Shown here: in pieces, positions 2,168 to 64,000 of the stretch
Layout of the letters: each line of letters starts with the position of its first letter
How positions within the stretch are numbered: the stretch's first letter is position 1
Program-made: the position numbers and the translations under genes
Notes under the pieces: generated by a model
Databases searched by the model: none
What the model saw: the letters and a program-made list of their open reading frames with translations, nothing else
What the model was told of the DNA's origin: nothing
Source: Prorocentrum cordatum
Lineage: Eukaryota
Direction of reading: 5' to 3'
NCBI GenBank assembly: GCA_963575745.1
Contig: CAUYUJ010000322.1
Location: forward strand, 1-64,000
DNA length: 64,000 nucleotides

Positions 2168-2198
<31 letters not shown>

Positions 2199-2220
2199 CG
2201 GGACCGGGACCGGGACCGGG
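1845..2220 (+). repeat. Compound microsatellite: (GAC)n, long (GAG)n ~1935-2133, (GAC)n, (CCGGGA)n
   Basis: Directly visible simple repeats. They generate spurious poly-E/R/P/S/L ORFs. Confidence 0.95.
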
Positions 2221-15740: not shown

Positions 15741-15756
15741 GGAGCATTACAAGGCC

Positions 15757-19197: not shown

Positions 19198-19239
19198 GAT
19201 CGCCCCTCCATGGCCGCTTGCCAGGGCGTCCCTCATTGA

Positions 19240-28875: not shown

Positions 28876-29381
28876 GGAAGCGGAGTTTACCTCCCGCTCT
28901 CCCTCGGCCTTGTCCCGTCGGGGGGCTCACTCGAGCTGCATCGTGCAGTCAGGCAGCCTGCCCCTGGCCCGCCGCGCGGGGGGCGCGTGGCGATTGGGCC
29001 ACTTCGGCGACGCCTGCACTTGTTTGCGGCATTGTTTGCACTTGTTTGCGAGCAGGCCGCCTGCACTTCTTTGCGGCATTTTGCCGCGTCGAGCTGGACG
29101 GGACGAGCCAGAGTCAATCGATCGATTTGGACCGCTGGGGAGCCAACTTCGGACATTGGGAGTGGGAGTATCTTGCCAGACAGGTTGGTAGAGCTCGACA
29201 CGACGATAAGGATTCTCTAGTCGACATACCATCTGGGCCACCTGATCTCTCTCCCACTTTACCTCACCATCCTGTTGCCCCATATAACTTTCATCAGTTG
29301 AGTGCACATCTCAAACGTACTCGAGAAGATCGATCGTTCTGTGCGAAGTGGAATATCCCTTGTAATATCTCAGACGGCAAG

Positions 29382-34604: not shown

Positions 34605-37058
34605 GATGGTGGGGGCTCAGTTGCACTGCTCCGCCGATTCGGATTCGGATTCTAGTGGCGGACCGCAAACCGCAAAAAAAACCAAGGTTGACGGTTTACC
34701 GCCGGCGCCCAGTTCCGGGGCGCTGGAGACCTAGTTGGCAAGACAAATCTCGACGGACCTTTTGGTGACTTTGGTCTGTTTGTTCTCGAAATTCAACCAT
34801 TCGTTAGAGCTCTAGTTTTTTTTTTCACGTGGTATTCGATCTTATTCCCGCTCGCCATCTTGATCTCAGCTCGATCGGGTACCTTTCACTGCCAAAAAGC
34901 GTCCAGGCGGGATCGGCCGTTTCGAGTCATCTTGATACGCGCTTTCGGTTTTCTCAAGACAACTCGAGCTTCAGGACAGCCACAGAGCTGATAAGCACAT
35001 CTAATCGATTCAGAATGTTCAGGCGCGTTTGCTTGTTGAATCGAGAGGTATGAACTCGGTCTACTAGCCGAGCTAGGTCCGCAAACCTATTTGTATTATT
35101 CGAGTCATCTTGACTGACGCTCTCAGTTTTCTGTACTTGACTTGAGCTACAGGACAGCTACAGAGCTGATACGTACAGAATCGGATTCAGAATCATCTGT
35201 TGCCGTTGTTTGTTGAATCCAGAGCTCTGAACTCGGTCTGCTGCCCGATCTAGAATCGCGAAACTATTCGTATTGTTCGAGTCATCTTGAGAGGTGCTGT
35301 CGGTTTCCTGCACTTAACTCGGGCTGTAGGGGGGCTGCAGGACTGGTAATCACAGGGATCGATTCAGAGACATCAGGCGCATCCGCCTTTCGAATCGAGA
35401 GCCGAAATCTGTCTGCTGCCCGAACTAGGTTCGCGAAACTATTCGTATTGTTCGAGTCATCCTGAGAGGTGCTGTCGGTTTCCTGCACTTAACTCGGGCT
35501 GTAGGGGGGCTGCAGGACTGGTAATCACAGGGATCGATTCAGAGACATCAGACGCGTCCGCCTGTCGCATGCAGAGGTCTGAACTCGGTCTGATACTCGA
35601 GCTATTCGTACTGTTCGAGTCATCTTGAGAGGTGCTGTCGATTTACGCACGTCACTCGGGCTGTAGGAGAGCTACAGAGCTCGTACAGAAGACAATCCAG
35701 AAGCATCGGGGGCGGTCGGCTGTTGCATCCGAGAGGTCTGAAATTGCTTGGGCTGAAAAACTATTTTTTCTGTGTTATTTTTTTCGACATTATATGTTGT
35801 CAGGAAGCTCTATGAGTCCCCCGGCGGTAACCAAGGTTGACGGTTTACCGCCGGCGCCCAGTTATTGCTGGGAGCTTAAGAGTAATTCGGGGGCGCCGGA
35901 GAGCTAGTTGGCAAGAAAAATCTCGACGGACCTTTTGGTGACTTTTGGTCGGTTGAAAATTTTGCTCTCGAAATTCAACCATTCGTTAGAGCTCTAGTAT
36001 TTTTTCCCGTGCTATTCGATCTTATTCCCGCTCGCCATCTTGATCTCAGCTCGATCGGCTACCTTTCACTGCCAAAAAGCGTCCAGGCGGTATCGGTCAT
36101 TTCGAGTCATCTTGATACGCGGTGACGGTTTTCTCAAGATCACTCGAGCTTTAGGACAGCTACAGAGCTGGTAAGCACAGCTAATCGATTCAGAATGATC
36201 AGGCGCGTTCGCCTGTTGAACCCAGAGGTCTGAACTCGGTCTGCTAGCCGAGCTAGGTCCGCAAACCTATTCGTATTATTCGAGTCATCTTGACAGACGC
36301 TCTCGGTTTTCTGTACTTAACTCGAGCTACAGGACAGCTATAGAGCTGATGCGTACAGAATCTGATTCAGAATCATCAGTGGCCGTTATCTGTTGAATCC
36401 AGAGCTCTGAACTCGGTCTGCTGCCCGCTCTAGAATCGCGAAACTATTCGTATTGTTCGAGTCATCTTGAGAGATGCTGTCGGTTCTCTGCACTTAACTC
36501 GGGCTGTAGGGGGGCTGCATGGCTGGTAATCACTGGAATCGATTCGGAGACATCAGGCGCGTCCACCTTTCGAATCCAGAGCTCCGAGCTCTGTCTGCTG
36601 CCCGAACTAGGTTCGCGAAACTATCCGTATTGTTCGAGTCATCCTGAGAGGTGCTGTCGGTTTCCTGCACTTAACTCGGGCTGTAGGGGGGGCTGCAGGG
36701 CTGGTAATCACAGGAATCGACTCAGAGATATCAGACGCGTCCGCCTGTCGCATGCAGAGGTCTGAACTCGGTCTGATACTCGAGCTAGGTTTGCCAAACT
36801 ATTCGTATTGTTCGAGTCATCTTGAGAGGTGCTGTCGATTTACGCACGTAACTCGGGCTGTAGGAGAGCTACAGAGCTCGTACAGAAGACAATCCAGAAG
36901 CATCGGGGGCGTTCGGCTGTTGCATCCGAGAGGTCTGAAATTGCTTGGGCTGAAAAATTAGTTTTCCCGTGTAATTTTTCTCGAAATTATATGTTCTCAG
37001 GAAGCTCTACGAGTCCCCCGGCGGTAAGACAGGTTGACGGTTTACCGCCGGCGCCCAG

Positions 37059-41799: not shown

Positions 41800-44700
41800 T
41801 TTGCGCAGAGCGAAGTTTTTACATAAGTTACCTCGCACATTCTTAGTTCATTCCGTCGAAAAATTCTCCCGAGCGAAGCCAGGGACCGACTTCACGTTGG
41901 CAGTCCAAAAATACCTCGTAGAGCTCTTCGGCATCGATGAGCTAGAGGAATTCTGGCGGGGGGTGGAGCTAGTTGGCCGACCCGACCAAAAGAGACAATG
42001 TGATAATCTTGGGTCGGTTTTGCTTTGATTTGAAAGATATTTGACAATTCATTTTGAGAACTGGTATTTTTCTTACGTGTAGTGGGTTATGTCGCGTCTG
42101 CCAGTTCAATTCTTAGGTCCGTAGCTGCAATATTACTATCAAAAGACTTGCTGGAACCAACTGCGTTCGAAGTCATCTTGACACGCGTTCACGGTTTTCT
42201 GTACTTAACTCGAGATTTCGAGAGCTACAGAGCTGATACTTGCAGGAACCGATTCAGAATGATCAGGCGCGTTCGCCTGTTGCATCCAGAGGACTGAACT
42301 CGGTCTGCTACTCGAGCTAGGTCCGTAGAAGTCACCTTCACCAGTGCTGCCGGTTTTCTGTACTCAACTCAAGATTCAGAGGAGCTACAGAGCTGGTACG
42401 CACATAAACTGATTTAGTATCACCAGGCGCTTGCGTCTGTTGCATCGAGAGGCCTGAACTCGTTCTGCTAGTCGAGCTAGATCCACAACACTATTCGTAT
42501 TTCTCAAGTTCTCTTCAGAGGCGCTGTCGGTATTCTGCACTTAACTCTAGCTGTAGCACAGCTACAGAGGTGGTACGCACAGAATCCGATACAGAATCAT
42601 CGAGGGCGTTTGGCTGAAGCATCTAGATCTCTGAACAGAGTCTGCTTCTCGAGCTAAGTCCGCAAAACTATTTGTGTGCGATCGATTTTTTAGAGTTTTT
42701 TGGCTCTCGCTTAAGCTTGCTTCGCGTGTTCCGAGGAGCTGGGCAAGAAAAGAGCTCTACGAGGTCCCCGGCGGTAGCCAGGTTGACGGTTTACCGCCGG
42801 CGCCTAGTCGACTGGCGCCGGCGGTGAACCGTCAACCTGGTCACAGCCGGGAATTTCGTAGAGCTCCTTGCACGCGTTTAGTACCTTGTAGGTCTCTTCG
42901 GTATCGATGAGCTAGAGGAATTCCGGCGCGGGGTGGAGCTAGTTGGTCGACCCGACGAGAAAGGACAATGTGACAACTTTTGGGTAGTTTTCCGAATATT
43001 TCAAAGATATTTGACCATTTATTTTGAGAAAGCAGATTTTTACGCCGAGCATTGGCATATAAACTTTGTTCCCTGAGCAGCTCGGCTCTCTAGAGTTAGT
43101 TTTAGTATCAGCTGACTTCCGGGAACCGACTTTATCTTCACTCCAAAAATCTCAATTTGACGTTTTTCTCGAAAAGCTCACGCAGAAGCTCTCCGCTTCG
43201 ATCCTAAGCTTTCTTACGGGTGCAAGGAGCTCTAGGAGGTTCCCGGCGGTGACCAGGTTGACGGTTCACCGCCGGCGCCAGTTGCTCAGCATCAAGAGTA
43301 TAGCTGTGCTGAATCTCGACTTACATGCATAAAACCGTCAACGCGTGTCGAGATGACTCACAACTGACAGCGGTTCCCTCAACTCTTTTGATAGTGATAA
43401 TGCAGCTACGGACCTGCAAATTTTACTGGCGAGCGCGACATAACCTACTACACGTGAGAAAAAATATTGGTTCTCAGAACGAATTTCAAACTTTTGCATA
43501 CATTTAAAAAAACCGATCCCAGGTTACCACATCCTCTCTTCTCGTCGGGCCGGCCAACTAGCTCTACCTGCGCCGGAATGCCTCTTAGCTCTTTGCTGAA
43601 GAGCTCTACGAGGTATGAGCTAGAAGAATAACTGGTAGAGCTTCCCTTAGCTAGTTGCTGGAAGCTTAAGAGTAAGTCTGGCGCGCTGGAGAGCTAGTAA
43701 CTCGTTTGAGCTTCCCTTAGCAAGTTGTTGCTGGAAGCTTAAGAGTAATTCCGGGGCGCTGGAGAGCTAGTTGGCAAGAAAAATCTCGACGGACCTTTTG
43801 GTGACTTTTGGTCGGTTGAACATTTTGTTCTCAAAATTTGAACATTCGTTAGAGCTCTAATATTTTTTCCCGTGATATTCGATCTTATTCCCGCTCGGCA
43901 TTTTGATCTCAGCTCGATCGGGTACCTTTTACTGCCAAAAAGCACAGGGGCGGGATCGGCCGTTTCGAGTCATCTTGAAACGCGCTGTCGGTATATTGGA
44001 CTCTCGAGATAAAGGACAGCTACAGAGCTGGTAAGCACACCTTATCGGTTCAGAATGATCAGGCGCGTTCGCCTCTTGCATCCAGAGGTCTGAACTCGGT
44101 CTAGCCGAGCTAGGTCCGCAAACTTATTCGTATTATTTGAGTCATCTTGACAGGCGCTCTCGGTTTTCTGCACTTAACTCGAGCTATAGGACCGCTACAG
44201 AGCTTATATTTACAGAAACCGATTGGAAATCATCAGTCGCGTTCGTCTGTTGAATCTAGACTCTGAACTCGGTCTGTTCCCCGATCTAGAATCGCGAAAC
44301 TATTCGTATTGCTCGAGTCATCTTCAGAGGTGCTGTCGGTTTTCTGCACTTAACTCGAGCTGTAGGGGGGCTACTGTGCTGGTGGTCACAGAAATCGATT
44401 TGAAGACTACCGACAACGCGTATTATGATGACTCGAAAGAGCCGATCCCGCCGCGACGCTTTTTTGCAGAAATATTTACCCGATCGAGCTGAGATCAAGA
44501 TGGCGAGCGGGAATAATATCAAATATAATCAGAAAAAATACTAGAGCTCAAACGAATTGTTGAATTTCGAGAACAAAATTTTCAACCGACCAAAAGTCAC
44601 CAAAAGGTCCGTCGAGTTTGTTCTTGCCAACTGGGCGCCGGCGGTAAACCGTCAACCTTTCTTACCGCCGGGGGACTCGTAGAGCTCCCTGACAATATAT

Positions 44701-46405
44701 AACGTCGAAAAAATCAGAGAAGAAATATTTTTCAACGCCCCCGATGTTTCTGGATTCTTCTCCACGAGCTCTGTGGCCCTCCTACATCCCGGGTTACGTG
44801 CGTAAATCGACAGCACCTCTGAAGATGACTTGAAGAAAACGTTCTGCAAACCCAGCTCGAGTATCAGACCAAGTTCAGACCTCTGAAAGCGACAGGCGGA
44901 CGCGTCTAAGTGTCCGAATCGATGTCTGTGATTACCAGCCCTGCAGCCCCCCTACAGCCCGAGTTAAGTGCAGTAAACTGACAGCACCTCTCAGAAGGAC
45001 TCGAACAATACGAATAGTTTCGCGACCTAGTTCGGGCAGCAGACCGAGTTCTGAGCTCTAGATTCGACAGACGGACGCGTATTTTGTACTTAACTCGAGC
45101 TGTAGGGCAGCTACAGAGCTCATTCTCACAGAAATCGATTGCGAATCATCAGGCGCGTTCGTCTCTCCTATCTAGAGGTCTGAACTCGGTCTGCTGCCCA
45201 AGCTTGGTTTGCGAAACTATTCGTATTGTTCGAGTCAACTTGAGAGATGCTGTCAGTTTTCTGCACTTAACTCGGACTGTAGGTGGGCTACAGGGCTCGT
45301 TCTTACAGTGATCGATTCGGAGACATCAGACGCGTCCGCCTGCCAAATCCAGAGCTCAGATCTCGATGTGCTGCCCGAGCTAGGTCCGCAAAACTATTCG
45401 TATTCTTCGAGTCATCTTGAGAGGTGCTGTCCGTTTTCTGCACTCAACTCGAGCTGTGAGGGGGCTGCAGGGCTGGTAATCACTGGAATCGATAAGAAGA
45501 CATCAGTCGCGTCCGCCTGTCGCATTGAGAGCTCTGAATTCGGTCTGCTGCCCCAGCTAAGTCCGCGAAGCTATTCGTATTGTTCGAGTCATCTTCAGAG
45601 GTGCTGTCGGTTTTCTGCACTTAACTCGGGCTGTAAGGGAGCTGCAGGGCTGGTATTCTCAGGAATCGATTCGGAGACATCAGGCGCGTCCGCCTGTTGC
45701 AAGATCTGAACTCGGTCTGATATTCGAGCTAGATTCGCGAAACTATTTGTATTGTTCGAGTGATCTTGAGAGGTGCTGTCGATTTTCGCACGTAACTCGG
45801 GCTGTAGGAGAGCTACGGAGCTCGTGCGCGCAGAAAACGATCCAGAAGCATGAGGGGCGTTCGGCTGTTGCATCGAGAGGTCTGAAATCGTTTAGGCTGA
45901 AAAACTTTTCGTTCTCTGCAATTGTTTTCGACAATATATATGGTCAGGAAGCTCTACGAGTCCACCGGCGGTAAGAAAGGTTGACGGTTTACCGCCGGCG
46001 CCCAGTTCCGGCGCGGGGTGGAGCTAGTTGCCGATCCGACCAGAAAGCTAGAGGAATTCCGGCGCGGGGTGGAGCTAGTTGCCCGACCCGATGAAAAGAG
46101 ACAATGTGAGAACTTTGGGTTGGTTTTGCTAAAATTTCAAAGATATTTGACAGTTCATTTTGAGAAAGCGTAATTTTTACGCGAGCATTCGCATATAAAC
46201 TTTCTTCCTTGAGCAGCTCAGCTCTCTAGAGCCAGTTTTACTATCGGAAAATTCGGAGCAACCAACATGAAATGCATGCGGAAAAATGTGAATTCGATTT
46301 TATTCTAGAAATGCCCCGAGAAGCTCCCTGCTTCGATCCTGAGCACTCTTACGCGTGCAAGGAGCTCTACAAGATTCCCGTCGGTGACCAGGTTGACGGT
46401 TCACC

Positions 46406-48252
46406 CTTCGTACGGAGGTGAGTCTCGCATGCATGAGCGAGACCAGCTGTATGGGCATGATGTCAAAGTTTCTCAATCGAAGTTGCGCCGCCTGCGGGCG
46501 AAACGTGTCAGGTATCGTTTGTGGTCCACAGCTCGGGGGCCAGATCCGTGGTGCCTTGTTCGCGCGGGCATTTTCGCGCCCAGATATTATCGGAATTTCT
46601 GCTCGGACGATTCTGAGGAAGAGGAGTGGGTTGAGGACACTTGTGGAACACAGACTGATATGGATGCTGTTGAATTGGCTGGCAACTCTTTGCGTTCGCA
46701 TTGTTCCGATTGTGGGACTCAGACAGATCCCTGTGTTCACATTGAGTGTGGGACTCAGACTGATCTTTCTGTTCTCTTTGTTGGTGAGGAGGAGAAGGAG
46801 GAGTGTCATCGAGTGCGCGCTGATCAGGGTGATGCTTCTGCACTTGGGAGTTCCTGTGCAGTCGGGAGTTCCACTGTTCGGAGTGCAGTAGGAAGTTCCA
46901 CAGTTCGGAGTTCCGCTGATGCAGTTGTGGATGCAGTTGGGAGTTCAACAGCTGGGAGTTCTGCAGTTGGGAGTACCGCGGTTTGGAGTTCAGCTGATGC
47001 TGTGGCATCGAACCCTGGCTGCAAGGACGAGGAGGAGGAGAATGTTCATAGTGAAGCAGTTGCTAAGATGGAGCAGGAGGAGGTGGCTGAGGAGGATTTT
47101 GTTCATGTTGGTGAGGGGGAGAAGGAGGAGTGTCATCGAGTGCACGTTGATCGGGGTGTTGCTTCTCTCAGAAGGAAGAGATCTTGTTTCAAACGAACGG
47201 AGACTATCGAGAGTACAAAGTTGCACACTTCAGAATTGCATGCGACCAACGGGAGTGCGGTGGAGAGTACCGCAGTTTTGAGTACAGTTGATGCAGTCGG
47301 GAGTTCCAGTGCAGTCGGGAGTTCAACACTTGGAAGTGCAGTAGGAAGTTCCACAGTTCGGAGTTCCGCTGATGCAGTTGAGGATGCAGTTGGGAGTTCA
47401 ACAGCTGGGAGTTCTGCAGTTGGGAGTTCAGCTGATGCAGTAGGGAGTTCCATGAATGGGAGTTCTGCAGATCGACCGAGTGAGACACGCTCTGAGTGCC
47501 AAGCTGCCAGGGACTGGGCCCTTGCCGGTGTCGATATGAGGGCTCTTTGGCTTGAGCTACACCGACTCCCGACACAGGAGTTTCAGCGTAGGACTGAGGC
47601 TCTTAATGCATACAGGCTGCAATTGGGAATTGAAAGTTCCGAGGAGGATGATTCGCAACAAGGGGGTCCTCAGAGTTCTACTTCCAGGAGTGCATTGACG
47701 CGGAGCGGCAAGAAGCATCGGAAACGGCACAGATGATGCACATGCGATTGATCCTGCACGCTTGATTTGTCATTGCGTTGCCTTTCTTCATTGATTGAGT
47801 GCATTCGTTGCTTCCTTGATTTGAGTGCTCATTGACCTTTGAACGTGACTTTCCGTGATTTGTCACGTGGTGCCTCAAAGTAGGCCTTTGATCTGTCGAC
47901 ACTACGGTTGCCTCAAAGAGGACTGGCGTGTACTCGTCATTATAGTTGTTAGTTTTGTGTTTGTCTCAGTGGTGTTGAGACGGTAATCGCTGTATAAACC
48001 AGTGGTTACTGTGTGGTCTCTCACTGCTTTTATTTTCAGTGGTGCTGAGACGGTAATCGCTATATGTGGTTACTGCATGGTCTCGCACTGCTTTGCTTCC
48101 ATCAATCTTTTAGGTGCATTCTCGTGTATTGTATACTTGTGCATTCCTGTACAGCTTCGCAGTTTGTGCACTTGTACTTAATCTTTGCAGCTTCGCTGCT
48201 TAGGTTCTTTGTGTTTAGGCCTGCTCCCATGGGAGCTCGAACCGGCCTTCGG
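46406..48252 (+). mobile_element. Non-autonomous coding insert E1 joined to a family B stem-loop
   Basis: Unique sequence begins after GGTTGACGGTTCACC. One ORF followed by a T-rich 3' UTR-like region. Shares a domain with E2. Confidence 0.55.
46429..47736 (+). CDS. Hypothetical low-complexity protein (3x CGTQTD, AVGSS repeats, SECQAARDW domain, basic C-terminus)
   Basis: 435-codon ATG ORF. The C-terminal ~50 aa are homologous to ORF 50618-51559. Confidence 0.55.
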   Translation: MHERDQLYGHDVKVSQSKLRRLRAKRVRYRLWSTARGPDPWCLVRAGIFAPRYYRNFCSDDSEEEEWVEDTCGTQTDMDAVELAGNSLRSHCSDCGTQTDPCVHIECGTQTDLSVLFVGEEEKEECHRVRADQGDASALGSSCAVGSSTVRSAVGSSTVRSSADAVVDAVGSSTAGSSAVGSTAVWSSADAVASNPGCKDEEEENVHSEAVAKMEQEEVAEEDFVHVGEGEKEECHRVHVDRGVASLRRKRSCFKRTETIESTKLHTSELHATNGSAVESTAVLSTVDAVGSSSAVGSSTLGSAVGSSTVRSSADAVEDAVGSSTAGSSAVGSSADAVGSSMNGSSADRPSETRSECQAARDWALAGVDMRALWLELHRLPTQEFQRRTEALNAYRLQLGIESSEEDDSQQGGPQSSTSRSALTRSGKKHRKRHR

Positions 48253-49890
48253 TGAACTCGTTCTGCTACTCGAGCTAGGTCCACAACGCTATTCGTTTCA
48301 ATTTCTCTGTGAGGCGCTGTCGGTGTTCTGCACTACTTTCTGTAGCACAGCTACAGAGCTGGTACGAACAGAAACCCATACATAATGATCGAGGGCGTTT
48401 GGCTGAAGCATCTAGAGCTCTGAGCAGAGTGTCTCGTAGAGCTTCCCTTAGCTAGTTGCTGGAAGCTTAAGAGTAATTCTGGGGCGCTGGAGAGCTAGTT
48501 GGCAAGAAAAATCTCGGCGGACCTTTTGCTGACTTTTGCTCGGTTGAAAATTTTGTTCTCGAAATTCAACCATTCGTTAGAGCTCTAGTATATTTTCCCG
48601 TGATATTCGATCTCATTCCCGCTCGCCGTCTTGATCTCAGCTCGATCGGGAATTTTTTACTGCCAAAAAGCGTCCAGGCCGGATCGGCTATTTCGAGGTA
48701 TCTTGATACGCGTTGTCGGTACTTTGCTTAACTCGAGCTGTAGGGCAGCTACAGAGCTCATACTTTACAGAAATGGGTTCAAAATCATCAGGCGCGTTCG
48801 TTTGTCGCATCGAGAGGTCTGAACTCGGTCTGCTGCTAGATCTGCGAAACTATTCGTATTGTTCGAATCATCTTGAGAGGTGCTGTCCGTTTTCTGCACT
48901 TAACTCGGGCTGTAGGGAGGCTACATGGCTGGTAATCACAGAAACCGATTCGCAGACATCTGGCGCGTCCGCCTATCGCATGCCGAGGTCTGAACTCGGT
49001 CTGCTACTCGAGCTAGGTCCGCAAAACTATTCGTATCGCTCGAGTCATCTGAACAGGGACTGTCAGTTTGCTGTACTTAACTCGAGCTCCAGGGGAGCTA
49101 CAGAGCTGATGCTCACAGGAACCGATGGAGAATATTCAGGCGCGTTCGTCTGTTGCATCCAGAGGTCTGAACTCGATCTGCTACTCGAGCTGGGCCCGCG
49201 AAACTATTCGTATTGATCGAGTCATCTTGAGAGGATTTTCGCACGTAGCTCGGGCTGTAGGAGAGCTACAGAGCTGATGCGCAAAACCTGATTCGGAATC
49301 ATCATGCGCGTTCGTCTGCTCTATCTAGAGGTCTGAACTGGGTCTGCTACTCGGGCTAGGTCCGCAAAACTATTTGTATTCTTCAAGTCACCTTGACAGA
49401 TGTTGTCCCTTTTCTGTATTAAACTCGGGCTGTAGGAGAGCTACAGAGCTGGTACGCACAGAAACTGATGCAGAAGCATGGTGAGCGTTCGTCTGTTGCA
49501 TCGAGAGTCTGAACTCGGCCTGCTACCCGAGCTAGGGTCACAAAACTATTCGTATTCGACTGACAATTTGTTTCCAAGGATGATGAATTTCTTCACTGTT
49601 CAGCACAGCAATGGAATATCACTAGACGCCTGAGATCAGTCTGCTATCAGCGCTCGGGCTGAAAACTGTTCGTTCTCTGCTAATTCGTTGGACATAATGT
49701 ATGGTCAGGAAGCTCTACGAGTCCCGCGGCGGTGAGAAAGGTTGACGGTTTACCGCCGGCGCCCAGTCTGCTTCTCGAGCTAAGTCCGCAAAAAGAATTG
49801 TATGCGACCGATTTTTTAGAGTTTTTTGGCTCTGGCTTAAGCTTGCTTCACTTCCGAGGAGCTGGGCAAGAAAAGAGCTCTACGAGGTTC
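48253..49890 (+). repeat. Family A/B element stack
   Basis: 178-bp units, A 5' end at ~48433, stem-loop at ~49710-49766. Confidence 0.8.
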
Positions 49891-49926
49891 CCGTAGCCAT
49901 TTTGGCTCAAGCCATTTTGGCTCAAG
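49891..49926 (+). other. Dinoflagellate spliced leader (DinoSL) plus one relict SL
   Basis: CCGTAGCCATTTTGGCTCAAG (49891-49911) followed by CCATTTTGGCTCAAG (49912-49926). Exact match to DCCGTAGCCATTTTGGCTCAAG apart from the first base. Confidence 0.97.
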
Positions 49927-50064
49927 AAAAGAGCTCTACGAGCTGCATAGTGCAGAGAGGTGTCCTTTTGTTCCTCTTACTGTACACGGTGCCTCAGTGT
50001 CGGTTTTGCCTGAGTGCCTTTGGATCGTGCGGACAGGGTGATCTGTCGGCATTGAACTGATTAG

Positions 50065-51559
50065 TTGTTCTTGCGTGCCCCTTCCTTGTGCGGCATCATG
50101 ACAGCGCAATTTTGTTCGATGAGTTCTGTTTCGACCAGTTGGAAAAGAAAAACAATGATAATCAAACTGGCGATTTGTAGACAAGCTGTATTTGATGTTA
50201 TGCAGTTTAATGCTCGTGATCCATATTTTGTGGCTGATCCGAATACTTTCCCCGCGTTTGGCTGGTTTGATAGCCTCGATGATTGTGCGCGAAACCCATG
50301 CCCGTTTCAGGGGAACTCGGAGGAGCAGGTCAGTATATTGTCGAGTTCCTTATCGGTGCCAACTGCTGGGCCAACTGATCGTGGAGAAGCTTTCTCGTCT
50401 CAATCGGTTGCGTATTCTCCAGATGTGGTGCAGTCTCCAGATGGTGGGCTGCAGTCGAGACTGGGCTCTGTTTCTTTTGATCCTGGTGTTCAGAATGAGG
50501 GGGCGTTTGAGGACAAGGAGGGGATGAAGGATACGGAGGTTGCCAAAGTTGCTGCGAATCCGTATTGTGCAGAGATCCATACGGCCGCTTCAGGATCCCA
50601 GGATGTAGGACCCAACCTTGCTGCCGAAGAAGCGTCGCTTGCTTCTCAATCAAATGATGCTGTACTGCACTCAGTTCCTTTGGATTATTCTCTGCACTCA
50701 GCTCCTTTGGATTATTCTCTGCACTCAGTTCCTCTGGAGTATTCTCGAGTGCAAAGGGAAGGTGGAGGGAGGCCCCGAGGCGCTGCCGTTGGCACCCTCG
50801 AAAACCCACGGAGAGTGCGAAGTCGACCAGCGTAAAGATAACTGTGCTTCTTCTTCCCGGCTCTGTTCAGATGAGTTGCAGAGCAATCGATCTGAGTGTC
50901 AAGCTGCCAGGGACTGGGCCCGTGCCAATGACGACGCAGTTGCTCTTTGGCGGGAATTCGAACGGCTCCCGAAAGAGGAGTTTTATGCTCGGATCGAGGC
51001 GCTCAAGGCATACAAACTTCGAATGGGAATTGAGAGTCCCGAGGAGGCGCCGAGTCCTGAGGAGGATGCTGGCCGCGGGAAAGGCCAGAGGCACCGCAGA
51101 AACAGGAGGCGGGCAAGGGCGAAGGCTCAGGCAGTTCTAACTGGCTCTTCTATGTCAAAGTCGGCCCATCCATCTACTTGCGATCCTCCCCAACCTCCGT
51201 CCTCTTTTCACGATTCAGTTTCTTCCGCTATACCCGCCCCAAGTGTGCCCTTGTTGCCCGAAGGCGACAAGGGGGCGGAGGTGGATGAGTTGCATAACAA
51301 TCAATCAGAGTGCGATGAGGACGCTGATTCGGATGCGGCCTTCCACGCATGGGATAAAATGGCCACCCAGCGAGTGAGGGCAAATTTCTATTTGAAGAAG
51401 GCTGCTCTGCACCGTTTGTGTGAGGCTTTGCACCGTGATGGGGGGGAGGACGCGGACATCCAGAGAAACTGTGGGCTGTGTCGGTTGGACAAGATAAGGA
51501 TGCACCGTATTGCAGGGTGGTGCTTCGGACATTTGCGAGCAGCTCTCTTATTTACATAA
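50065..51559 (+). pseudogene. Frameshifted hypothetical protein of E2 with SECQAARDW domain
   Basis: Overlapping ORFs 50065-50835 and 50618-51559. 3x 27-bp repeat at ~50665-50745. The start codon is uncertain. Confidence 0.45.
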
Positions 51560-52263
51560 GATGCTCGTGCACCGTTTTGCACGAAGCTATGTTCATACCA
51601 CTCTTATTGTATATGCGAGTACAACAAAAACTAGACGGCCTCCGTGGATTCTTCGACGGAGGGCGCTCTGTGGAGGGATGTGCCTCCATTGGCGGCTCTG
51701 TATGGCCGTGGAACACGTTTTGGGTAGCCTCTTTCTTCTTTAACCTGTTCCTACACCTTTGCAATTTCACATGTCGTGCTGCATCCTTTTCCTTGTTCCT
51801 GCATCCTATTCCGATGCCTATGCCTCAGTGGCTCGGCAGTGTGATGATAAGAGATGCCTTCTCTTGCTACCCTGTGCTCCGTTTGGGAGTCTTAGGGCTC
51901 AGCTGTCACAGCTGTCCGCGCCCTGACTCAAACTCAAAAAACCAGGTTGACGGTTTACCGCCGGCGCTCAGTTTGTCGACCCGACCAGAAAAGAAGATGT
52001 GGTAACTTTGGGTGGGTTTTCCAAAGATTTCAAAGATATTTGATAATTCATTTTGAGAAAGCAGATTTTTCGCACCTGTAGTGGGTTATGCCGCGTCTGC
52101 CAGTTAAATTCTTAGGTCCGTAGCTGCAGTATTACTATCAAAACACTTGGAGGAACCGCCTTTGGATGAAAACCGAAAGTCGTGATTTTTCGAGTTTCTC
52201 GTTTCTCGCTCCAGAAGCTTTCTTCATGTGTTCCGAGGATTGCCGTGCAAGAAAAGAGCTCTT

Positions 52264-52300
52264 ACATATATATATATATATATATACTATATATATATTA

Positions 52301-52385
<85 letters not shown>

Positions 52386-52392
52386 TATATAT
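52264..52392. repeat. (TA)n microsatellite
   Basis: Directly visible. Confidence 0.97.
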
Positions 52393-56528: not shown

Positions 56529-56911
56529 TACCTCGTGGAGGTCTTCGGCGTCGATGAGCTGAGGAATACCTCGTAGAGGAGCTAGTTGACCGACCCGGCC
56601 TTAAGAGACAAAGTGGTGACTTTGGGTCGATTTTGCTAAGATTTGAGAGATATTTGACCATTCATTTTGAGAAACCATATTTTTCGCACCTGTAATGGGT
56701 TATGACTCTTGCGCCTGTAAAATTTTCAGGTCCGTAGGTACAGTATTACTACCAAAACATTTGGAGCAACCGACGTTAGATAAACATCGAAAAACGTTTT
56801 TTTTTTTTCTCGAGTTTCTCGGATCTCGCTCCAGAAGCTTCCCTCATGTGTTCCGAGGGGCGCGGAAAGAGCTCTACGAGGGTCCCGGCGGTCTACGAGG
56901 GCCCCGGCGGT

Positions 56912-59900
56912 CCCGGAGGAGTGTGAAGAGATAGCTGCGGAGGTCTATGAGCAGATCACTCGTTCTCGTAACGTACTCCGCACTAAGTTTCCTCATGCCA
57001 GCTTTTGTGTTCTGCTCGATGCAAATGTGGAGATTCTGCCTGGATGCAAGTTTACGTATAATGGGGCGGTGTATGAGGCTACTGGAGAGGAGGGTACTCG
57101 TATGGAAAGAAGGTGGGAGAGAGGAGGAGACGGTACACAGCATATTGAGAGGAGGAATCGGAGGAGGAGGCTGAAGGAGCTGCTCTTAGAGTTCATGGAA
57201 TCGCATGGACTGAAGGCCGCCAACACTTTCAATACTAGGAGGCATAGTTGGGAGTCGTGGGGGGAGAACAAGTTTCTGGCTTCGAAGAGGGTCCTGGATT
57301 ACCTACTTGTCCCTTATCGTTGGGAGTTCTCGGATCTGGAGGTGAAGTGGTGTTTCAAGAGGGGTGGTAAGAAGCAGGTCAGCAGATTATCAGATCACGC
57401 TATCATCGCGGCGAGTCTCACGGACCCTGGGGAAGTGATTGTTCGTCGCCCAGACCCCCAGCCTGGTCAAAGTTTTAGGCCGTCCCTGGTCGGATACAAG
57501 TGTTCGACTTGGGCTGATGAGCATCAGGCTCGGCAGCGTGTGGATATGAATCTAGGCGGTGCGGCCTTCGCTCGTTCGGGGTGTCCGTCTGTGCTCCGTC
57601 CCGAGTGCTTGCAGAGTACTATGCTGGAGGCGTACGTGTCGCCTGCGGTGGACTTCTCCACCACGAGGGCGGGGGGGCCAAAGGAGCCGTCCAGGCCGGT
57701 GCAGCTCACTTGGGCCGAGGGGGAGGTTAAGATGTGTCCGAAGGAGGAGGTTGAGAGGTTGAGGAGGTTAAAGAATGAGGCCAATCGTCTACGCAGAAGT
57801 TATCGACGGGATATGATTATGTGCAGATGTCCCCCAACAAAACGAAAGGTCATATATACTATCAAACATTTAGTGGTGGATGGGAGGGAGACGGAGGATC
57901 GTGAGGAGTTGAAGGAGGAGCTCGACAAGTTCGTTCGTTTCAAGGTGTCGTCCGAGGAGGCACGCAATTCCACTAACAGTATGATGGAGGAGATCAGGAT
58001 GAGGGCTGAACATGAGGTGCGATCCACATCAGTTTTGGGAATTAGTATGGCGCTGCTTCTCAGAGCACGGGCTCGGCTGAAGACCCAGAGGGCTACTAGG
58101 CCAGATGGGGTACCGTGCGAGATTCTCAGGAGTTTGCCGCGGTGTGCTCTCAGATCGATCCAGAAGTTGTTCGATAAAATCATCAAGCTCATGACTCCTT
58201 ATCCGCAGTCGTGGCGTCAGATCCTCATCTCTTTTATGCCCAAGATTCCAGGGATTACTAAGTTGAAAGACGGTCGTTTGCTGTGTATGCAGAATGCTGT
58301 TTCGAGATGGTTCAGTTCCTGTATTGTTCTCCTGGTTGAGGGCCATGTTGAAAGAAACTGAGTTTTTCGTCATATTGGGTTGTATGGGTTCCAGCAACAT
58401 CGTCGTACACACGAAATCACGGCTAGCATCAAACATATAGGTCAACATGCTGCACACTGGGGAAAAGGGAAAACGGCACACTTGGCGAACGCTGATGTCC
58501 TCCAGGCGTTCGATCACTGCACTGTGGCCAATGTCAGGCGTGGGTTGGATCATGCAAATGTGCCCCCTGTACTTACAGTATCCTCTACTTAACCCCATGT
58601 GTGAATGTATAGGCACTGTCTATTATGATGGGATTGAGGTTTTGGAGGTGATGTGGGACAAATGTATTCGGACGGGAGGGCCTGAGGGCCCATTGGCTTT
58701 CAATCTTATTGTTGCCGCTACGCGGAGTTCCACGATTCGAGAATGGGACGTGCTGGGCCTAGGTTATCGTATTGAGTTTGCTACTGGCTCGACTAGCTGT
58801 GTTTCGGTTATTAATCACTTCCTCTGGGCGGACAACTGTTATGTTCTGGCTCGGAGTCGGGAGGAACTCACGCGCATGTTACATGACTATGGTATGAGAT
58901 GGAAGGAGTCCAGTCTACTGTGCATGGTGTTCGGTGCTGCTCCTCCGCGTGATGCGGAAGGGGAAATATTCCGAACTGCTGATCTTGTTCTTTCGATTGG
59001 GTCGGAGGATTCGGGAGTGTATCGATTCAGAAGAGTGACGGAGATGGAGGTGCTTGAGGCTCACATTTGTTTTGAACTACATGTAAATGAGCATCCAGAT
59101 CTGGATGCTAGTATTGACTCTGCTCGAAGGGCGTTCTGGGGCCAGGCGTCCTTCTTCCGCTCTACGGCCATTCCGCTGAAAGATAAGTATGAGAGGTATG
59201 CGCAGAGGGTTCAGAGTATTGTTCTCTACGCGGCGGCAGGATGTACGGTCGACTCTAACTCATTGAGTGCCCTTCATATCTTTGAGGGTAAGTGCCTGGC
59301 TGTCATGTCTCGTTGTGTACGGAGGGAGGAGGAAAGTTATCAGGAGTGGAATACGAGGAGGTACGAACGTGCGAGACAAAACACCCATGATGCACATTAT
59401 GTGGGTATTGTACAGAAGTTTCTCAGAGTGCACTCCATGTGGGCAATCGACGTCCACGATTTTGCCCAGAGGTTGATCGCATATCAGGAGGCGCTGGAGG
59501 CGAACTCTACAAGAGCTTGGAGAGATTCTCGTTTCTCATGCCTGGCGTTTGGCCGGCTGTGGGATAGAACGAGGACAGATTCAAGCGAGGCTCTCAGATG
59601 TTGGGGGAAATGGAAGTAGGCCAGCTCACTGAAACGACATCGTGGGGGACAGGAGAGTGTAGGACTTCGTTCTTGGTATTATTCTTTGGAATCGTTTTAT
59701 GGTTTATCCTGGTGGGCGTTCTTTGTTGGAAGCTTTGAACATTTCATGGATTTCGCTGCGCATGTTTGTTCTAGTAGTATGTTGAAGTATTTCCAGAAGA
59801 AATGCAAAGGCTTGGCGTCCTCAGGGGTGCCTGTGTTCTTGAATATGGATGAGGATGGAAGGGGTTCATATTGGTCAGGATCGGGAGGATACACCAGCAT

Positions 59901-60894
59901 ATAGGGATCGCCCTAGCAAACGTATCGCGCTGCATAACATGCGTTGCACACAGTGGGGCCTCGAAACGAATGGGATGCCATTGGACATCCAGGGGGGTTC
60001 ACTGCTTGTGATTAACTGGCTCTGTGGGATATGGAAAGTATTAGCTCAGGTATATCAGAAAAGGGTAGACACTCTGATAAATAAGTTGGACGAGATGCAG
60101 GATACATACTCGGTGAGGACTCCAGAGGCTGGCCGTGATTTCTTCTCTCACTCTTTTCGGGAATGGAACCAGAGGGCTGACTTACTGACCCATCAGGCCC
60201 GTCAGGGCCATGTGTGCGCCGATTTCTTTTACCTCAGTGATTTCGAATCTCAGTGTTGCTCCTTGCCTTATCAAAGCTGGCTTTGATGGGGGTGTTTGCA
60301 GCCGCGGAAGTGCCTGTGGCGTGTGGATACAGATAGGTATATTTAACAAGTATATCTTCTCGCGGACCGACATCACTTTCAAGGATGTGTATCTTGCGGC
60401 TTGGTGTCTGCCACCAAGTGCCACGGTCGCAGATGCGGAGTTGCCAGCTGCGGAGCGCATATGCGATGTGCTCCCACAGGTTGTGCAGACCTTCTTTGAT
60501 CATTCGCAGTGATAAGTCGCACATTGTGTCATCTCATACTTTGTCTTCTTGTATATTTTAACAGCTTCGCTGTTTATTTGTTCTTTGTTTGTCATCTGTG
60601 TGCTTTGCGATTGATTGTGTCATTGCAGGCTTTTGATTCTCTTTATTTCAACAGCTTCGCTGATGTGAAATAAGAGCTGACTGCTTGCGTGATGAATGAG
60701 AGGCTCTGATTCGCCTGAGACTTCGTTGGACCTGGCCTCAGTGGCCAAGACGGTCCCAGCAAAGACGCAACAACAACCTGGTTGATGCTCCAAGAGTATC
60801 ACGTTTTTCAGGGTACATCCAGCCCACAGGGGATGGCTGCACCAACCACACCGCCCTTGTAGGGCCCCGTGGTCGGACCGCAAACCGCAAAAAA
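56912..60894 (+). mobile_element. Non-LTR retrotransposon copy 3 (5'-truncated, frameshifted ORF2)
   Basis: LDANVEI, AANTFN, LDYLL, SDH; ADVLQAFD, IRTGGPEGP, FLWADN; HSFREWNQRAD then GFDGG. Tail GGACCGCAAACCGCAAAAA|ACCTGGTTGACGGTTTACCGCCGG. Confidence 0.88.
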
Positions 60895-63340: not shown

Positions 63341-63354
63341 GAAAACGGGGATCA

Positions 63355-64000
63355 CAGCAGGCCTCGAAAGTGGCGACAGGTTCGCAGATCGCAGCCCCGC
63401 AGGGATGGGATGGCGAGGTCTCATTTGAATCTGCCCGTGGCCCTCACTGTGCTGGGCCCCCCAGCAGGCCTCGAAAATGGCGACAGTTTCGCAGATCGCA
63501 GCCCCCCAGGGATGGCGAGGTCTAATTTGAATCTGCCCGTGGCCCTCACTGTGCTGGCCCCCCAGCAGGCCTCGAAAGTGGCGACAGTTTCGCAGATCGC
63601 AGCCCCCCAGGGATGGCGAGGTCTAATTTGAATCTGCGCGTTGCCCTCACTGTGCTGGGCCCCCCAGCAGGCCTCGAAAATGGCGACAGTTTCGCAGATC
63701 GCAGCCCCCCAGGGATGGCGAGGTCTAATTTGGGTCCGCGCGTGGCCCTCACTGTGCTGGGCCCCCCAGCAGGCATCGAAAATGGCGACAGTTTCGCAGA
63801 TCGCAGCCCCCCAGGGATGGCGAGGTCTAATTTGAATCCGCGCGTGGCCCTCACTGTGCTGGGCCCCCCAGCAGGCCTCGAAAATGGCGACAGTTTCGCA
63901 GATCGCAGCCCCCCAGGGATGGCGAGGTCTAATTTGAATCCGCGCGTGGCCCTCACTGTGCTGGGCCCCCCAGCAGGCCTCGAAAATGGCGACAGTTTCG
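63355..64000 (+). repeat. 102-bp tandem satellite (>6 units, runs off the window)
   Basis: CAGCAGG unit starts at 63462, 63563, 63665, 63767, 63869 and 63971. Confidence 0.95.

What the first reader, a model, noticed from the sequence alone, without database searches (positions are those of the whole stretch)
49861..49960. Double spliced leader followed by a copy of the target site: a record of repeated trans-splicing and re-insertion
Seen: host ..GGGCAAG AAAAGAGCTCTACGAGGTTC, then full SL, relict SL, AAAAGAGCTCTACGAG (49927-49942) and the insert body. The SL therefore replaces everything up to the AG in the host's GCAAG|AAAAGAGCTC. A CCG microhomology joins target and SL. Known: tandem relict SLs mark repeated mRNA recycling in dinoflagellates. 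Inference: the element is transcribed by read-in from the host repeat, and the repeat supplies the trans-splice acceptor. The RNA was spliced twice in its history and reinserted into the same type of site, so the target provides both expression signals and a landing pad.
Basis: partly seen in the sequence, partly recalled or inferred. Interest (0 to 1): 0.87.

Follow-up and report, generated by a model that had tools for sequence, protein, structure and literature searches.

The report
Twice-recycled dinoflagellate retrogene at LINE target
A dinoflagellate messenger RNA that had already been copied back into the genome once was copied back again, landing at the very spot in a repeated DNA hairpin where neighbouring jumping genes (LINEs) also insert, which points to those LINEs as the machinery that makes such gene copies.

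Summary
49891-49911 is an exact 21-nt dinoflagellate spliced leader (SL), 49912-49926 an exact relict SL. The 16-mer AAAAGAGCTCTACGAG stands before and after them.

- **The insert.** It is not a LINE. It is a ~2.05-kb processed copy of a protein-coding mRNA of unknown function. Its closest named proteins are from Prorocentrum cordatum. It runs SL, relict SL, 16-nt leader, body, A6 (49891-51941).
- **The target.** It interrupts one copy of a conserved hairpin module, found 24 times in the window. About 7 bp of target are lost, there is no duplication, and a CCG microhomology sits at the 5' joint.
- **The new point.** Two LINEs with a reverse transcriptase and an AP-endonuclease-like fold have A-tails abutting the same module position. 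Their tail, GACCGCAAACCGC(A)n, resembles the retrocopy's GACTCAAACTC(A)6. The landing pad therefore most likely reflects LINE endonuclease specificity, with the mRNA mobilised in trans.
- **The second 16-mer.** It is not a target-site duplication. It was part of the mRNA, taken from a sister module just after its GCAAG acceptor.
- **Status of this copy.** It carries a 4-nt frameshift. No second SL-16-mer junction was found.

Interest is moderate to high. This is a new variant of known kinds.

The parts
49813..49893 (+). Left half of the interrupted target module. It holds a pyrimidine-rich stretch, the GCAAG acceptor-like site (49866-49870), the 16-mer (49871-49886) and GTTCCCG (49887-49893).
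   Evidence: Aligns to uninterrupted copies at 42686-42770, 26716-26800 and 52571-52648; module alignment.
49891..49911 (+). Full dinoflagellate spliced leader (21 of 22 nt, first base missing). CCG at 49891-49893 is shared with the target (microhomology).
   Evidence: Exact and unique in the window; sequence as printed in PMC6050394.
49912..49926 (+). Relict SL (CCATTTTGGCTCAAG): the part of an older, DNA-encoded SL left after re-splicing at its internal AG.
   Evidence: relict definition in PMC12014239.
49927..49942 (+). 16-nt leader AAAAGAGCTCTACGAG carried by the mRNA. It is identical to the module segment between the AG of GCAAG and the following GT.
   Evidence: A contig of run X2 shares only CGAG (49939-49942) and is unlike the window further upstream (record 25).
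49943..51935 (+). Body of the retrocopy: 5' UTR 49943-50097, coding region 50098-51559 split by 4 extra bases at 50764-50767, then the 3' UTR. The protein is of unknown function.
   Evidence: ORFs; no Pfam family; homologs named Prorocentrum cordatum, 86% identity, and one JGI protein at 90%. PolyA-RNA contigs cover 50043-51903, and 4 of 4 runs lack the 4 bases.
51936..51941 (+). A6 tail, preceded by GACTCAAACTC, which resembles the LINE tail.
51942..51975 (+). Right half of the same target module (CCAGGTTGACGGTTTACCGCCGGCGC...).
   Evidence: 100% identical to 42778-42803. Empty-site contigs in DNA run X1 join 49893 to 51941/51942 with GCGGTGN between (tables 5 and 5c).
42743..42810 (+). Best uninterrupted copy of the target module ('empty site'). 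GCGGTAG (42771-42777) is the stretch missing at the occupied site.
   Evidence: hairpin fold.
28878..34681 (+). LINE-A, apparently intact. ORF1 is 28866-30428; ORF2 is 30429-34604 (endonuclease, RT, C-terminal part). The tail is GGACCGCAAACCGC-A8. The 5' joint lies after GGTTGA of a module, the 3' joint before CCAAGGTTGACGG, with an 8-bp duplication AAGGTTGA.
   Evidence: RVT_1 E 9.1e-12. The endonuclease model matches AP-endonuclease, R1Bm, L1 and TRAS1 folds.
56893..60894 (+). LINE-B, 5'-truncated within ORF2. It is preceded by a 19-nt repeat of module sequence (56893-56911). The tail is GGACCGCAAACCGC-A6, abutting CCTGGTTGACGG.
   Evidence: 31% identity to LINE-A ORF2.
61323..64000 (+). LINE-C. 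It starts after GACCAGGTT of another module copy. It has ORF1-like and endonuclease-like ORFs, and its 3' end was not found within the window.
   Evidence: its ORF1 is related to LINE-A ORF1.
46309..47736 (+). Distant paralog of the retrocopy's gene, directly downstream of another module copy (46350-46405).
   Evidence: P0008 is its close relative.

Best explanation
The stretch 49891-51941 is a processed retrocopy of a host mRNA. I propose four steps.

**Step 1 (inferred).** In an earlier copy, the pre-mRNA contained a sister copy of the hairpin module. It was SL-trans-spliced at the AG of GCAAG, so the mature mRNA began SL-AAAAGAGCTCTACGAG-CTGCATAG...

**Step 2 (inferred from the relict, by the published logic).** That mRNA was reverse-transcribed and integrated. 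The new copy was transcribed from upstream and trans-spliced again at the AG inside its DNA-encoded SL. This gave SL - relict SL - 16-mer - body.

**Step 3 (structure shown, mechanism inferred).** This mRNA was reverse-transcribed by target-primed reverse transcription at the nick site of a site-specific LINE with an AP-endonuclease-like domain. The nick lies in the upper part of the module's hairpin, just before CC(A/T)GGTTGACGG on the top strand. This puts A6 against CCAGGTTGACGG. The cDNA's far end was joined 7 bp upstream of the nick through a CCG microhomology, which removed GCGGTRA and left no duplication.

**Step 4.** The copy now carries 4 extra bases that split its reading frame, so it is probably a pseudogene.

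The second 16-mer is therefore not a target-site duplication. It is mRNA sequence that came from another copy of the same repeat. The same repeat recurs as both source and target because the LINE machinery places its products there.

One point is unresolved: how the 16-mer came to abut the body in step 1. Either it was cis-spliced from the module's GAG|GT, or an earlier 5'-shortened insertion joined the module through the shared CGAG. I give each roughly equal weight.
For: **Structure of the insert**
- Exact SL plus relict SL.
- Left and right flanks are the two halves of one module. They are contiguous elsewhere in the window (26.8, 42.7 and 52.6 kb). They are also contiguous in many contigs of DNA run X1, where 6-7 bases (GCGGTGN) replace the 2,047-2,048-bp insert (tables 5 and 5c).
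- An A6 tail stands at the 3' joint.

**Shared insertion site**
- The 20-mer GGTTGACGGTTTACCGCCGG has 24 matches at up to 3 mismatches. Of these, 21 are uninterrupted and 3 have an A-tailed insert directly upstream, all within about 1 nt of the same column and in the same orientation. The three are LINE-A, LINE-B and the retrocopy.
- My rough estimate for a random insertion hitting that column and orientation is about 7e-4: 28 module copies x 3 positions / 128,000 strand positions.

**The LINEs**
- LINE-A has intact ORFs and an RT domain.
- Its endonuclease model (mean pLDDT 71) matches AP-endonuclease and R1Bm/L1/TRAS1 endonuclease structures at E about 1e-9.
- LINE 5' joints vary: an 8-bp duplication, a ~2-bp loss, and a joint 7 nt past the nick. 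The 3' joint is fixed. This is the classical TPRT pattern.
- LINE-A and LINE-B share only 31% ORF2 identity but have the same tail, GACCGCAAACCGC(A)n. The retrocopy ends GACTCAAACTC(A)6. The pattern CAAAC.{1,2}CA{5,} occurs 3 times in the window, exactly at these three joints, against 0.055 expected. I designed that pattern after seeing the tails.

**The leader**
- The 16-mer begins right after an AG and ends right before a GT in the module consensus.
- LINE-B also carries a piece of module sequence at its 5' end. This shows that source copies lying in modules are read into from upstream.

**The body is a real, expressed gene family**
- PolyA-RNA contigs of two studies cover 50043-51903 at roughly 96-99% identity.
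- Homologs exist in P. cordatum.
- At 51537 other transcripts continue with sequence starting GT... that encodes the conserved C-terminus. This would fit the window copy deriving from a differently spliced mRNA.
Against: - There is no target-site duplication. A 7-bp loss is compatible with TPRT but is not its typical outcome.
- The A-tail is only 6 nt and could be genome-encoded.
- LINE site-specificity rests on 3 joints (plus one 5' joint) in one 64-kb window. No whole genome was available.
- One further RT-bearing ORF (22672-25113) shows no module joint.
- No contig shown bridges SL, 16-mer and body. The one X2 contig reaching the joint (record 25) is unlike the window upstream of 49939.
- None of the four runs carries the window's own variant letters, so the junctions were not independently re-observed.
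- Scans for other SL-16-mer junctions and for gene relatives in JGI contigs found nothing.
- The tail resemblance is a post hoc pattern.
Confidence: 0.7

Rival explanations
1. Resident-gene conversion. The gene already lay in this module, with an intron after the 16-mer. A cDNA of its own twice-spliced mRNA then recombined with it, homologously within the body and by CCG microhomology in the intron. This replaced the intron start with SL - relict - 16-mer. The A6/module joint would then be older than the SLs.
For: Recycling of cDNAs into existing gene copies was the original proposal for relict SLs; I recall this from Slamovits and Keeling 2008, which is cited in the passages but which I did not read. 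Retrogenes tend to lie near their parents (PMC5585692). The module's GAG|GT after the 16-mer could be a splice donor.
Against: It needs two events at one site where one suffices. The flanks are precisely the two halves of one module, with the 3' joint at the LINE position. No parent-like copy with an intron was seen. The nearest paralog (46.3 kb) is only 75% identical over 160 nt.
Confidence: 0.1
2. Chance landing. An mRNA copy, made by any reverse transcriptase (for example from an LTR element) and inserted by end-joining at a random break, happened to fall into a very abundant repeat. The LINEs would be irrelevant.
For: The repeat is abundant: 24 module copies in 64 kb. There is no target duplication, and there is a microhomology with a small deletion, as in end-joining. 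The review PMC6050394 favoured LTR elements as the RT source (section 7 read).
Against: The 3' joint coincides within about 1 nt, and in orientation, with two LINE joints; my rough estimate for this by chance is below 1e-3. The A-tail sits at the joint. The tail resembles the LINE tail.
Confidence: 0.1
3. Tiny SL insertion with a 16-bp target duplication. Only GTTC + SL + relict (about 40 nt) was inserted next to a pre-existing 16-mer-body junction, and this duplicated the 16-mer.
For: The 16-mer flanks the SL pair on both sides.
Against: GTTCCCG continues the module consensus and so belongs to the target, not to an insert. The model leaves unexplained why body plus A6 sits exactly between two module halves (empty-site joints). 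Neither SL is followed by the GT donor an SL RNA gene would need. No RNA family matched.
Confidence: 0.04
4. Assembly or cDNA-contamination artefact joining a transcript to repeat DNA.
For: None of the four runs laid reproduces the window's own variant letters. No displayed contig spans the 5' joint.
Against: Both ends join the two halves of one module at a LINE-type site with an A-tail and a microhomology, which a chimera would not produce. An X2 contig crosses an equivalent body-A-run-module joint (record 32).
Confidence: 0.04

Closest known systems
[quoted passage not shown] 2017, PMC5585692; Haro et al. 2025, PMC12014239)
   Same: A full DinoSL is followed by the 15-nt relict CCATTTTGGCTCAAG upstream of a coding sequence. 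The same logic of repeated trans-splicing and retroposition applies.
   Different: Here both insertion junctions are readable in genomic DNA and coincide with a LINE target site. The leader behind the SLs derives from the same repeat family as the target. The papers I read state that the enzyme behind retroposition is unknown and that direct evidence is lacking.
L1-mediated processed pseudogenes of mammals (trans-mobilisation of mRNA by a LINE)
   Same: An mRNA copy with an A-tail is inserted at the nick site preferred by a resident LINE endonuclease, with no enzymes of its own.
   Different: There is no target-site duplication (a 7-bp loss instead). The target is a long specific site in a repeat rather than a short degenerate TTTT/AA-like motif (recalled). 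The mRNA's 3' end resembles the LINE tail.
Site-specific AP-endonuclease LINEs: R1 and TRAS/SART of insects, and the Tx1 group, whose member Tx1L inserts in another transposon (recalled from the literature; structures 2ei9 and 1wdu were among the fold hits)
   Same: The endonuclease has an AP-endonuclease fold. The 3' joint is fixed at one position of a repeated target, the 5' joints vary, and the tail is A-rich.
   Different: This is a dinoflagellate element with very few sequence relatives: 14 hits among 1.84 billion representatives. The target is an unnamed hairpin module, not rDNA, telomere or an snRNA gene. I made no phylogeny, so the clade is unknown.
SL-gene-targeting LINEs (SLACS/CZAR/CRE of trypanosomatids, NeSL-1 of nematodes; recalled)
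   Same: A LINE and a spliced leader are found at one junction.
   Different: The relation is the reverse. There the SL RNA gene is the target. Here the SL is part of the inserted cDNA and the target holds no SL gene.

Membership tests
Dinoflagellate SL-tagged retrogene (recycled cDNA) | DNA-encoded DinoSL, or a relict of it, upstream of a coding sequence | tested here: met
   Exact 21-nt SL at 49891-49911, 187 nt upstream of the ATG at 50098.
Dinoflagellate SL-tagged retrogene (recycled cDNA) | Relict truncated at the SL's internal AG (CCATTTTGGCTCAAG), directly behind a fuller SL | tested here: met
   49912-49926, exact; definition in PMC12014239.
Dinoflagellate SL-tagged retrogene (recycled cDNA) | Derivation from an expressed host gene | tested here: met
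   PolyA-RNA contigs from two studies cover 50043-51903. Homologous proteins exist in P. cordatum. The parent locus itself was not found.
Dinoflagellate SL-tagged retrogene (recycled cDNA) | Loss of introns relative to the parent | not testable with these tools
   No genome is held. The only hint is the alternative continuation starting GT at 51537.
LINE-mediated processed retrocopy (TPRT in trans) | A-tail at the 3' joint | tested here: met
   A6 at 51936-51941; it is short.
LINE-mediated processed retrocopy (TPRT in trans) | Insertion at the resident LINE's own target position | tested here: met
   Same module column as LINE-A and LINE-B; 3 of 3 A-tailed joints.
LINE-mediated processed retrocopy (TPRT in trans) | Target-site duplication | tested here: not met
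   About 7 bp (GCGGTRA) are lost instead (table 5c).
Site-specific AP-endonuclease-type non-LTR retrotransposon (LINE-A/B/C) | Reverse transcriptase domain | tested here: met
   RVT_1, E 9.1e-12, 45.6 bits against a cutoff of 29.6, in LINE-A ORF2. LINE-B aligns to it at 31% identity.
Site-specific AP-endonuclease-type non-LTR retrotransposon (LINE-A/B/C) | N-terminal AP-endonuclease (EEP) fold | tested here: met
   No Pfam or PDB sequence hit. The AlphaFold model (pLDDT 71, pTM 0.73) matches AP endonucleases and R1Bm, L1 and TRAS1 endonucleases with probability 1.00, E about 3e-9 to 6e-8. Catalytic residues were not checked.
Site-specific AP-endonuclease-type non-LTR retrotransposon (LINE-A/B/C) | Same target position in independent insertions | tested here: inconclusive
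   Met for the 2 LINE 3' joints and 3 LINE 5' joints in this window. Not tested genome-wide. One other RT ORF (22672-25113) lies outside a module.
SL-gene-targeting LINEs (SLACS/NeSL type) | The target is an SL RNA gene | tested here: not met
   The SLs lie inside the insert and neither is followed by a GT donor. The target is the hairpin module. No RNA family was detected.

The most novel reading that the evidence does not exclude
The module, the LINE and this gene family form a self-sustaining retro-cycle.

- The LINE endonuclease delivers cDNAs to one position of a conserved hairpin module.
- The module, lying just upstream and in the same orientation, offers a spliced-leader acceptor (GCAAG|). 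Read-in transcripts of whatever lands there thus become capped, translatable mRNAs.
- This gene family has acquired a 3' end that mimics the LINE tail, so it is preferentially re-copied.

That would make it a protein-coding 'hitch-hiker' on a site-specific LINE. It would also identify the long-sought machinery of dinoflagellate mRNA recycling.
Probability: 0.2. Interest if true: 0.8.

Novelty: new variant of a known kind. Interest (0 to 1): 0.6.

Why it matters
Dinoflagellate genomes carry thousands of SL-tagged retrogenes. The papers I read say it is unknown which reverse transcriptase makes them and that direct evidence is lacking:

- PMC5585692 (passages).
- PMC6050394 section 7, which favoured LTR elements.
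- PMC12014239 (passages).

This locus shows both junctions of a young, twice-recycled retrocopy. It places the 3' junction at the exact target position of neighbouring LINEs that have intact ORFs. If the pattern holds genome-wide, three things follow:

1. It names the machinery: a site-specific LINE with an AP-endonuclease-like domain.
2. It explains why retrocopies cluster in certain repeats.
3. It suggests how they find a trans-splice acceptor.

The question also becomes testable by a simple census of what follows the A-tails of SL-tagged copies.

I found no paper holding the terms dinoflagellate + retrogene + 'target-primed reverse transcription' (0 papers). None of the 6 papers holding dinoflagellate + non-LTR + site-specific + retrotransposon appeared, from its title and abstract, to describe such an element (listing only).

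Tried and rejected
**Searches that found nothing**
- The window's own genome is not held.
- Earlier findings of this scan returned nothing by place, words or sequence.
- JGI metagenome contigs, pattern SL-end + NNNN + GAGCTCTACGAG: 0 matches.
- JGI contigs, searched with the N-terminal protein: 142 pattern matches, none confirmed. Neither scan shows absence, because Prorocentrum data there may be sparse.
- Viral contigs, module 20-mer: 0 matches.
- Protein search with the frame running through module - SL - SL - 16-mer (49746-50057): 0 hits.
- Protein search with the LINE-A endonuclease region among long proteins: 0 hits.
- PDB sequence searches with LINE-A ORF2 parts: 0 hits.
- Pfam on the retrocopy ORFs, the paralog, LINE ORF1 and the LINE-B/C fragments: no family.
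- Protein Atlas for homolog P0002: best score 0.80, no lead.
- Rfam and tRNA scans of the window and of the module regions: nothing for the module.

**Ideas tested and dropped or left open**
- Body equals LINE or ORF1-like: rejected.
- A 17-nt match between the retrocopy's 5' UTR start (CGAGCTGCATAGTGCAG) and the LINE-A 5' UTR scored 29. Shuffles gave mean 19 and maximum 30, so I treat it as chance.
- Whole-hairpin fold energies are not better than shuffles (z -0.9). The case for the hairpin rests on compensated variants instead.

**Parts without informative cover**
- No displayed contig bridges 49926-49943.
- 231 loose ends and 4,050 pieces were not shown.

**Not consulted**
- Supplements of the papers. 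The P. cordatum supplementary tables on dinoSL transcripts and repeats may bear on this.
Full report
**1. What is there**

The window reads as follows. GGGCAAG is followed by AAAAGAGCTCTACGAG (49871-49886) and GTTC. Then comes CCGTAGCCATTTTGGCTCAAG (49891-49911), then CCATTTTGGCTCAAG (49912-49926), then AAAAGAGCTCTACGAG again (49927-49942), then CTGCATAGTGCAG...

- The 21-mer is the dinoflagellate spliced leader without its first, variable base. The 15-mer is the published relict. Both sequences are printed in PMC6050394 and PMC12014239.
- Both are exact, and they are the only SL-like sequences in the 64 kb.
- The 16-mer has 4 exact and 11 near copies (15 matches at up to 2 mismatches, 0.07 expected). 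It is therefore part of a repeat.

**2. The repeat (the 'host')**

The 16-mer belongs to a module of about 55 nt: AGCTCTACGAG - (G)TNCCCGGCGGTRA - 3 to 4 nt - GGTTGACGGTTTACCGCCGG - CGCC(C)AGT.

- Its 20-nt core has 24 matches at up to 3 mismatches.
- The module comes in two upstream contexts. One follows arrays of a 177-bp satellite. The other is preceded by a pyrimidine-rich stretch ending GCAAG(A/G)A(A/G)-GAGCTC.
- The module folds into a hairpin, CCGGCGGT(A/G)A...T(T/C)ACCGCCGG, around a nearly invariant GGTTGAC.
- The same module occurs 9 times in two short AT-richer contigs, L006 and L007. These are binned in a bacterial MAG and are probably eukaryotic contamination.
  - Six of those copies carry a different stem, CGAGCGG/CCGCTCG, in which an added A is matched by an added T.
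  - All 30 copies (21 from the window, 9 from L006/L007) fold into the hairpin.
- No Rfam family or tRNA matches the module. Its nature is unknown.

**3. The insert**

Compared with uninterrupted copies, the left flank stops at GTTCCCG (49893). The right flank resumes at CCAGGTTGACGG (51942).

- 49765-49893 aligns to 42639-42770 at 91.7%, and 51942-51967 to 42778-42803 at 100%. Seven bases of the best empty-site copy (GCGGTAG, 42771-42777) are missing.
- In DNA run X1, many contigs join 49893 to 51941/51942 with GCGGTGN between them (tables 5 and 5c). These are empty copies of the repeat.
- The insert ends ...GACTCAAACTC-AAAAAA (51936-41).
- The unit is therefore SL - relict SL - 16-mer - about 2 kb of body - A6. 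It has lost about 7 bp of target, has no duplication, and shares CCG between the target (GTTCCCG|GCGG) and the SL ([D]CCG|TAGCC).

**4. The body is a gene copy, not a LINE**

- Two overlapping ORFs (50098-50835 and 50609-51559) belong to one reading frame split by 4 extra bases at 50764-50767. All 4 of 4 runs laid lack these bases (table 4). By coordinate arithmetic, their removal puts the second frame into the first, giving about 485 codons.
- No Pfam family was found.
- Relatives are unnamed proteins of Prorocentrum cordatum (86% identity for the best, P0002) and a JGI protein (90%).
- The protein is unrelated to the LINE ORF1.
- PolyA-RNA contigs from two studies (X15, X16) cover 50043-51903. 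Over six of the listed X1 pieces there are 15 other letters in 1,013, about 1.5%; some RNA pieces differ more (table 8).
- None of the runs carries the window's own variant letters.
- At 51537, other transcripts continue with GTGCTTGACATTC..., which encodes the conserved C-terminus ...RCLTFYSSGAQ seen in the homologs. The window copy has a different 3' end there.
- A distant paralog lies at 46309-47736, directly behind another module copy.

**5. The LINEs and the shared site**

- **LINE-A (28878-34681).** It has an open ORF1 (520 codons) and ORF2 (1,391 codons).
  - It has an RT domain.
  - Its N-terminal domain has no sequence hit in Pfam or PDB. Its model (pLDDT 71) matches AP endonucleases and the endonucleases of R1Bm, L1 and TRAS1.
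  - It has very few relatives: 14 among 1.84 billion representatives.
  - It ends GGACCGCAAACCGC-A8 against CCAAGGTTGACGG and starts after GGTTGA of the same module, with AAGGTTGA duplicated.
- **LINE-B (56893-60894).** It is truncated within ORF2 and only 31% identical to LINE-A in the RT region. It ends with the same GGACCGCAAACCGC-A6 against CCTGGTTGACGG. At its 5' end it is preceded by a 19-nt repeat of module sequence.
- **LINE-C.** It starts after GACCAGGTT of a further module.
- So 3 of 3 A-tailed joints in the window lie at one module column, in one orientation, while the 5' joints scatter over about 17 nt. This is the pattern of target-primed reverse transcription by a site-specific endonuclease.
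- The retrocopy uses the same 3' position. My rough estimate for this by chance is about 7e-4.
- Its tail (GAC-TCAAAC-TC-A6) resembles the LINE tail (GACCGCAAACCGC-An). The loose pattern CAAAC.{1,2}CA{5,} occurs only at these three joints (a post hoc pattern).
- No LINE 5' end carries an SL (0 of 3).
- One other RT-bearing ORF (22672-25113) is not in a module.

**6. How it most likely arose**

- **Shown:** the anatomy described above.
- **Inferred from published logic:** two trans-splicing events and at least two retropositions.
- **Inferred here:** the last insertion was made by the LINE machinery acting on an mRNA.
- **The second 16-mer:** it starts after the AG of GCAAG and ends before a GT in the module consensus. 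It is therefore the piece of a sister module that remained on the mRNA after trans-splicing.
- **How it came to abut CTGCATAG:** this is open.
  - The GT argues for cis-splicing of a mini-exon.
  - Against that, a contig of run X2 shares only CGAG with the window at 49939-49942 and differs upstream, at a depth comparable to the body. X2's depth profile looks like RNA: low on the repeats, high on the body. This fits a longer native 5' UTR and an earlier, 5'-shortened insertion joined to the module through a CGAG microhomology.
  - LINE-B's module-derived 5' piece shows that source copies sitting in modules are read into from upstream.
  - P0005, a P. cordatum gene model, begins ...RKLYEFPAVTKV. 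This back-translates to the module through ...GGTGACCAAGGT and then continues with an internal part of this gene. It hints at another family member directly behind a module. Because it is a predicted model, it is only a hint.
  - An X2 contig also crosses body-A-run-module and then departs from the window after 51972 (record 32). This suggests a second copy at an equivalent site.

**7. What remains unproven**

- No second SL-16-mer junction was found.
- The window's junctions were not re-observed in reads.
- Site-specificity is based on one window.
- The present copy is probably dead because of the frameshift.
- The rivals are each less likely, for the reasons given in their entries: conversion of a resident gene by its cDNA, a chance landing, a tiny SL insertion with a 16-bp duplication, and assembly error.

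**8. Comparison and novelty**

- Relict SLs and recycling are known.
- LINE-mediated mRNA copies are known from mammals.
- Site-specific LINEs with an AP-type endonuclease are known from animals.
- New here:
  - a readable retrogene insertion in a dinoflagellate at the target of a site-specific LINE;
  - that LINE family and its hairpin target;
  - the leader and the landing site coming from the same repeat.
- The papers read say the enzyme behind dinoflagellate retroposition is unknown. My searches found no description of such an element (titles and abstracts only).
It is a new variant of known kinds, interest 0.6.

Noticed in passing
window 2000-19200: A stretch of about 70% G+C holds very long ORFs. 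One carries Helitron_like_N, PIF1 helicase and DUF6570 domains (8028-15737). Another carries a ubiquitin hydrolase domain (15496-19194). Together they look like a giant Helitron-like element.
   Followed up: partly
window 22672-25113: A further ORF has a weak RT match (RVT_1, E 4.5e-5, below the Pfam cutoff). No A-tail or module joint was seen at its end.
   Followed up: partly
window 157-1010, 25621-28767, 34921-41117, 45088-45890, 48727-49556, 52988-55745: Arrays of a ~177-bp satellite (2 to 11 units each) alternate with the hairpin modules. They form a larger composite repeat landscape.
   Followed up: no
L006 (5,397 nt) and L007 (1,801 nt), contigs binned in a Nitrospinota MAG: Nine copies of the same hairpin module lie in 7.2 kb of 41-43% G+C DNA. 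Six have a compensated stem variant (CGAGCGG/CCGCTCG). These contigs are probably eukaryotic contamination of the MAG. The module is thus conserved beyond the window's organism.
   Followed up: partly
window 34661-34681, 60876-60894, 51925-51941: Two LINEs with only 31% ORF2 identity share an identical 3' tail, GACCGCAAACCGC(A)n. The retrocopy's mRNA ends in the similar GACTCAAACTC(A)6. The LINE tail also contains GGCGG/ACCGC, the two arms of the module's stem.
   Followed up: partly
window 56881-56911: At the LINE-B 5' joint the module stretch CTACGAGGGTCCCGGCGGT is followed by a near-identical second copy, CTACGAGGGCCCCGGCGGT, before the truncated LINE begins. Either the source copy's upstream module was carried along, or the duplication arose at the joint.
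   Followed up: partly
window 52248-52393: Another copy of the GCAAGAAAAGAGCTC module type is cut short after GAGCTCTTAC by a 128-bp (AT)n microsatellite.
   Followed up: no
window 51537/51538: RNA contigs of runs X2 and X16 leave the window here. They continue with GTGCTTGACATTC..., which encodes the conserved C-terminus of the homologs. The window copy has another 3' end. This points to alternative splicing or a different paralog.
   Followed up: partly
window 49939-49955 and 28931-28947: A 17-nt near-identity (CGAGCTGCAT[A/C]GTGCAG) links the start of the retrocopy's 5' UTR to the 5' UTR of LINE-A. Its score lies within the range of shuffles.
   Followed up: yes
window 42748-42880: Two modules lie head to head, forming a long palindrome centred on CTAGTCGACTGG.
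   Followed up: no
window 63355-64000: A 102-bp tandem repeat, 6.3 copies at 95% identity, runs off the window's end.
   Followed up: no
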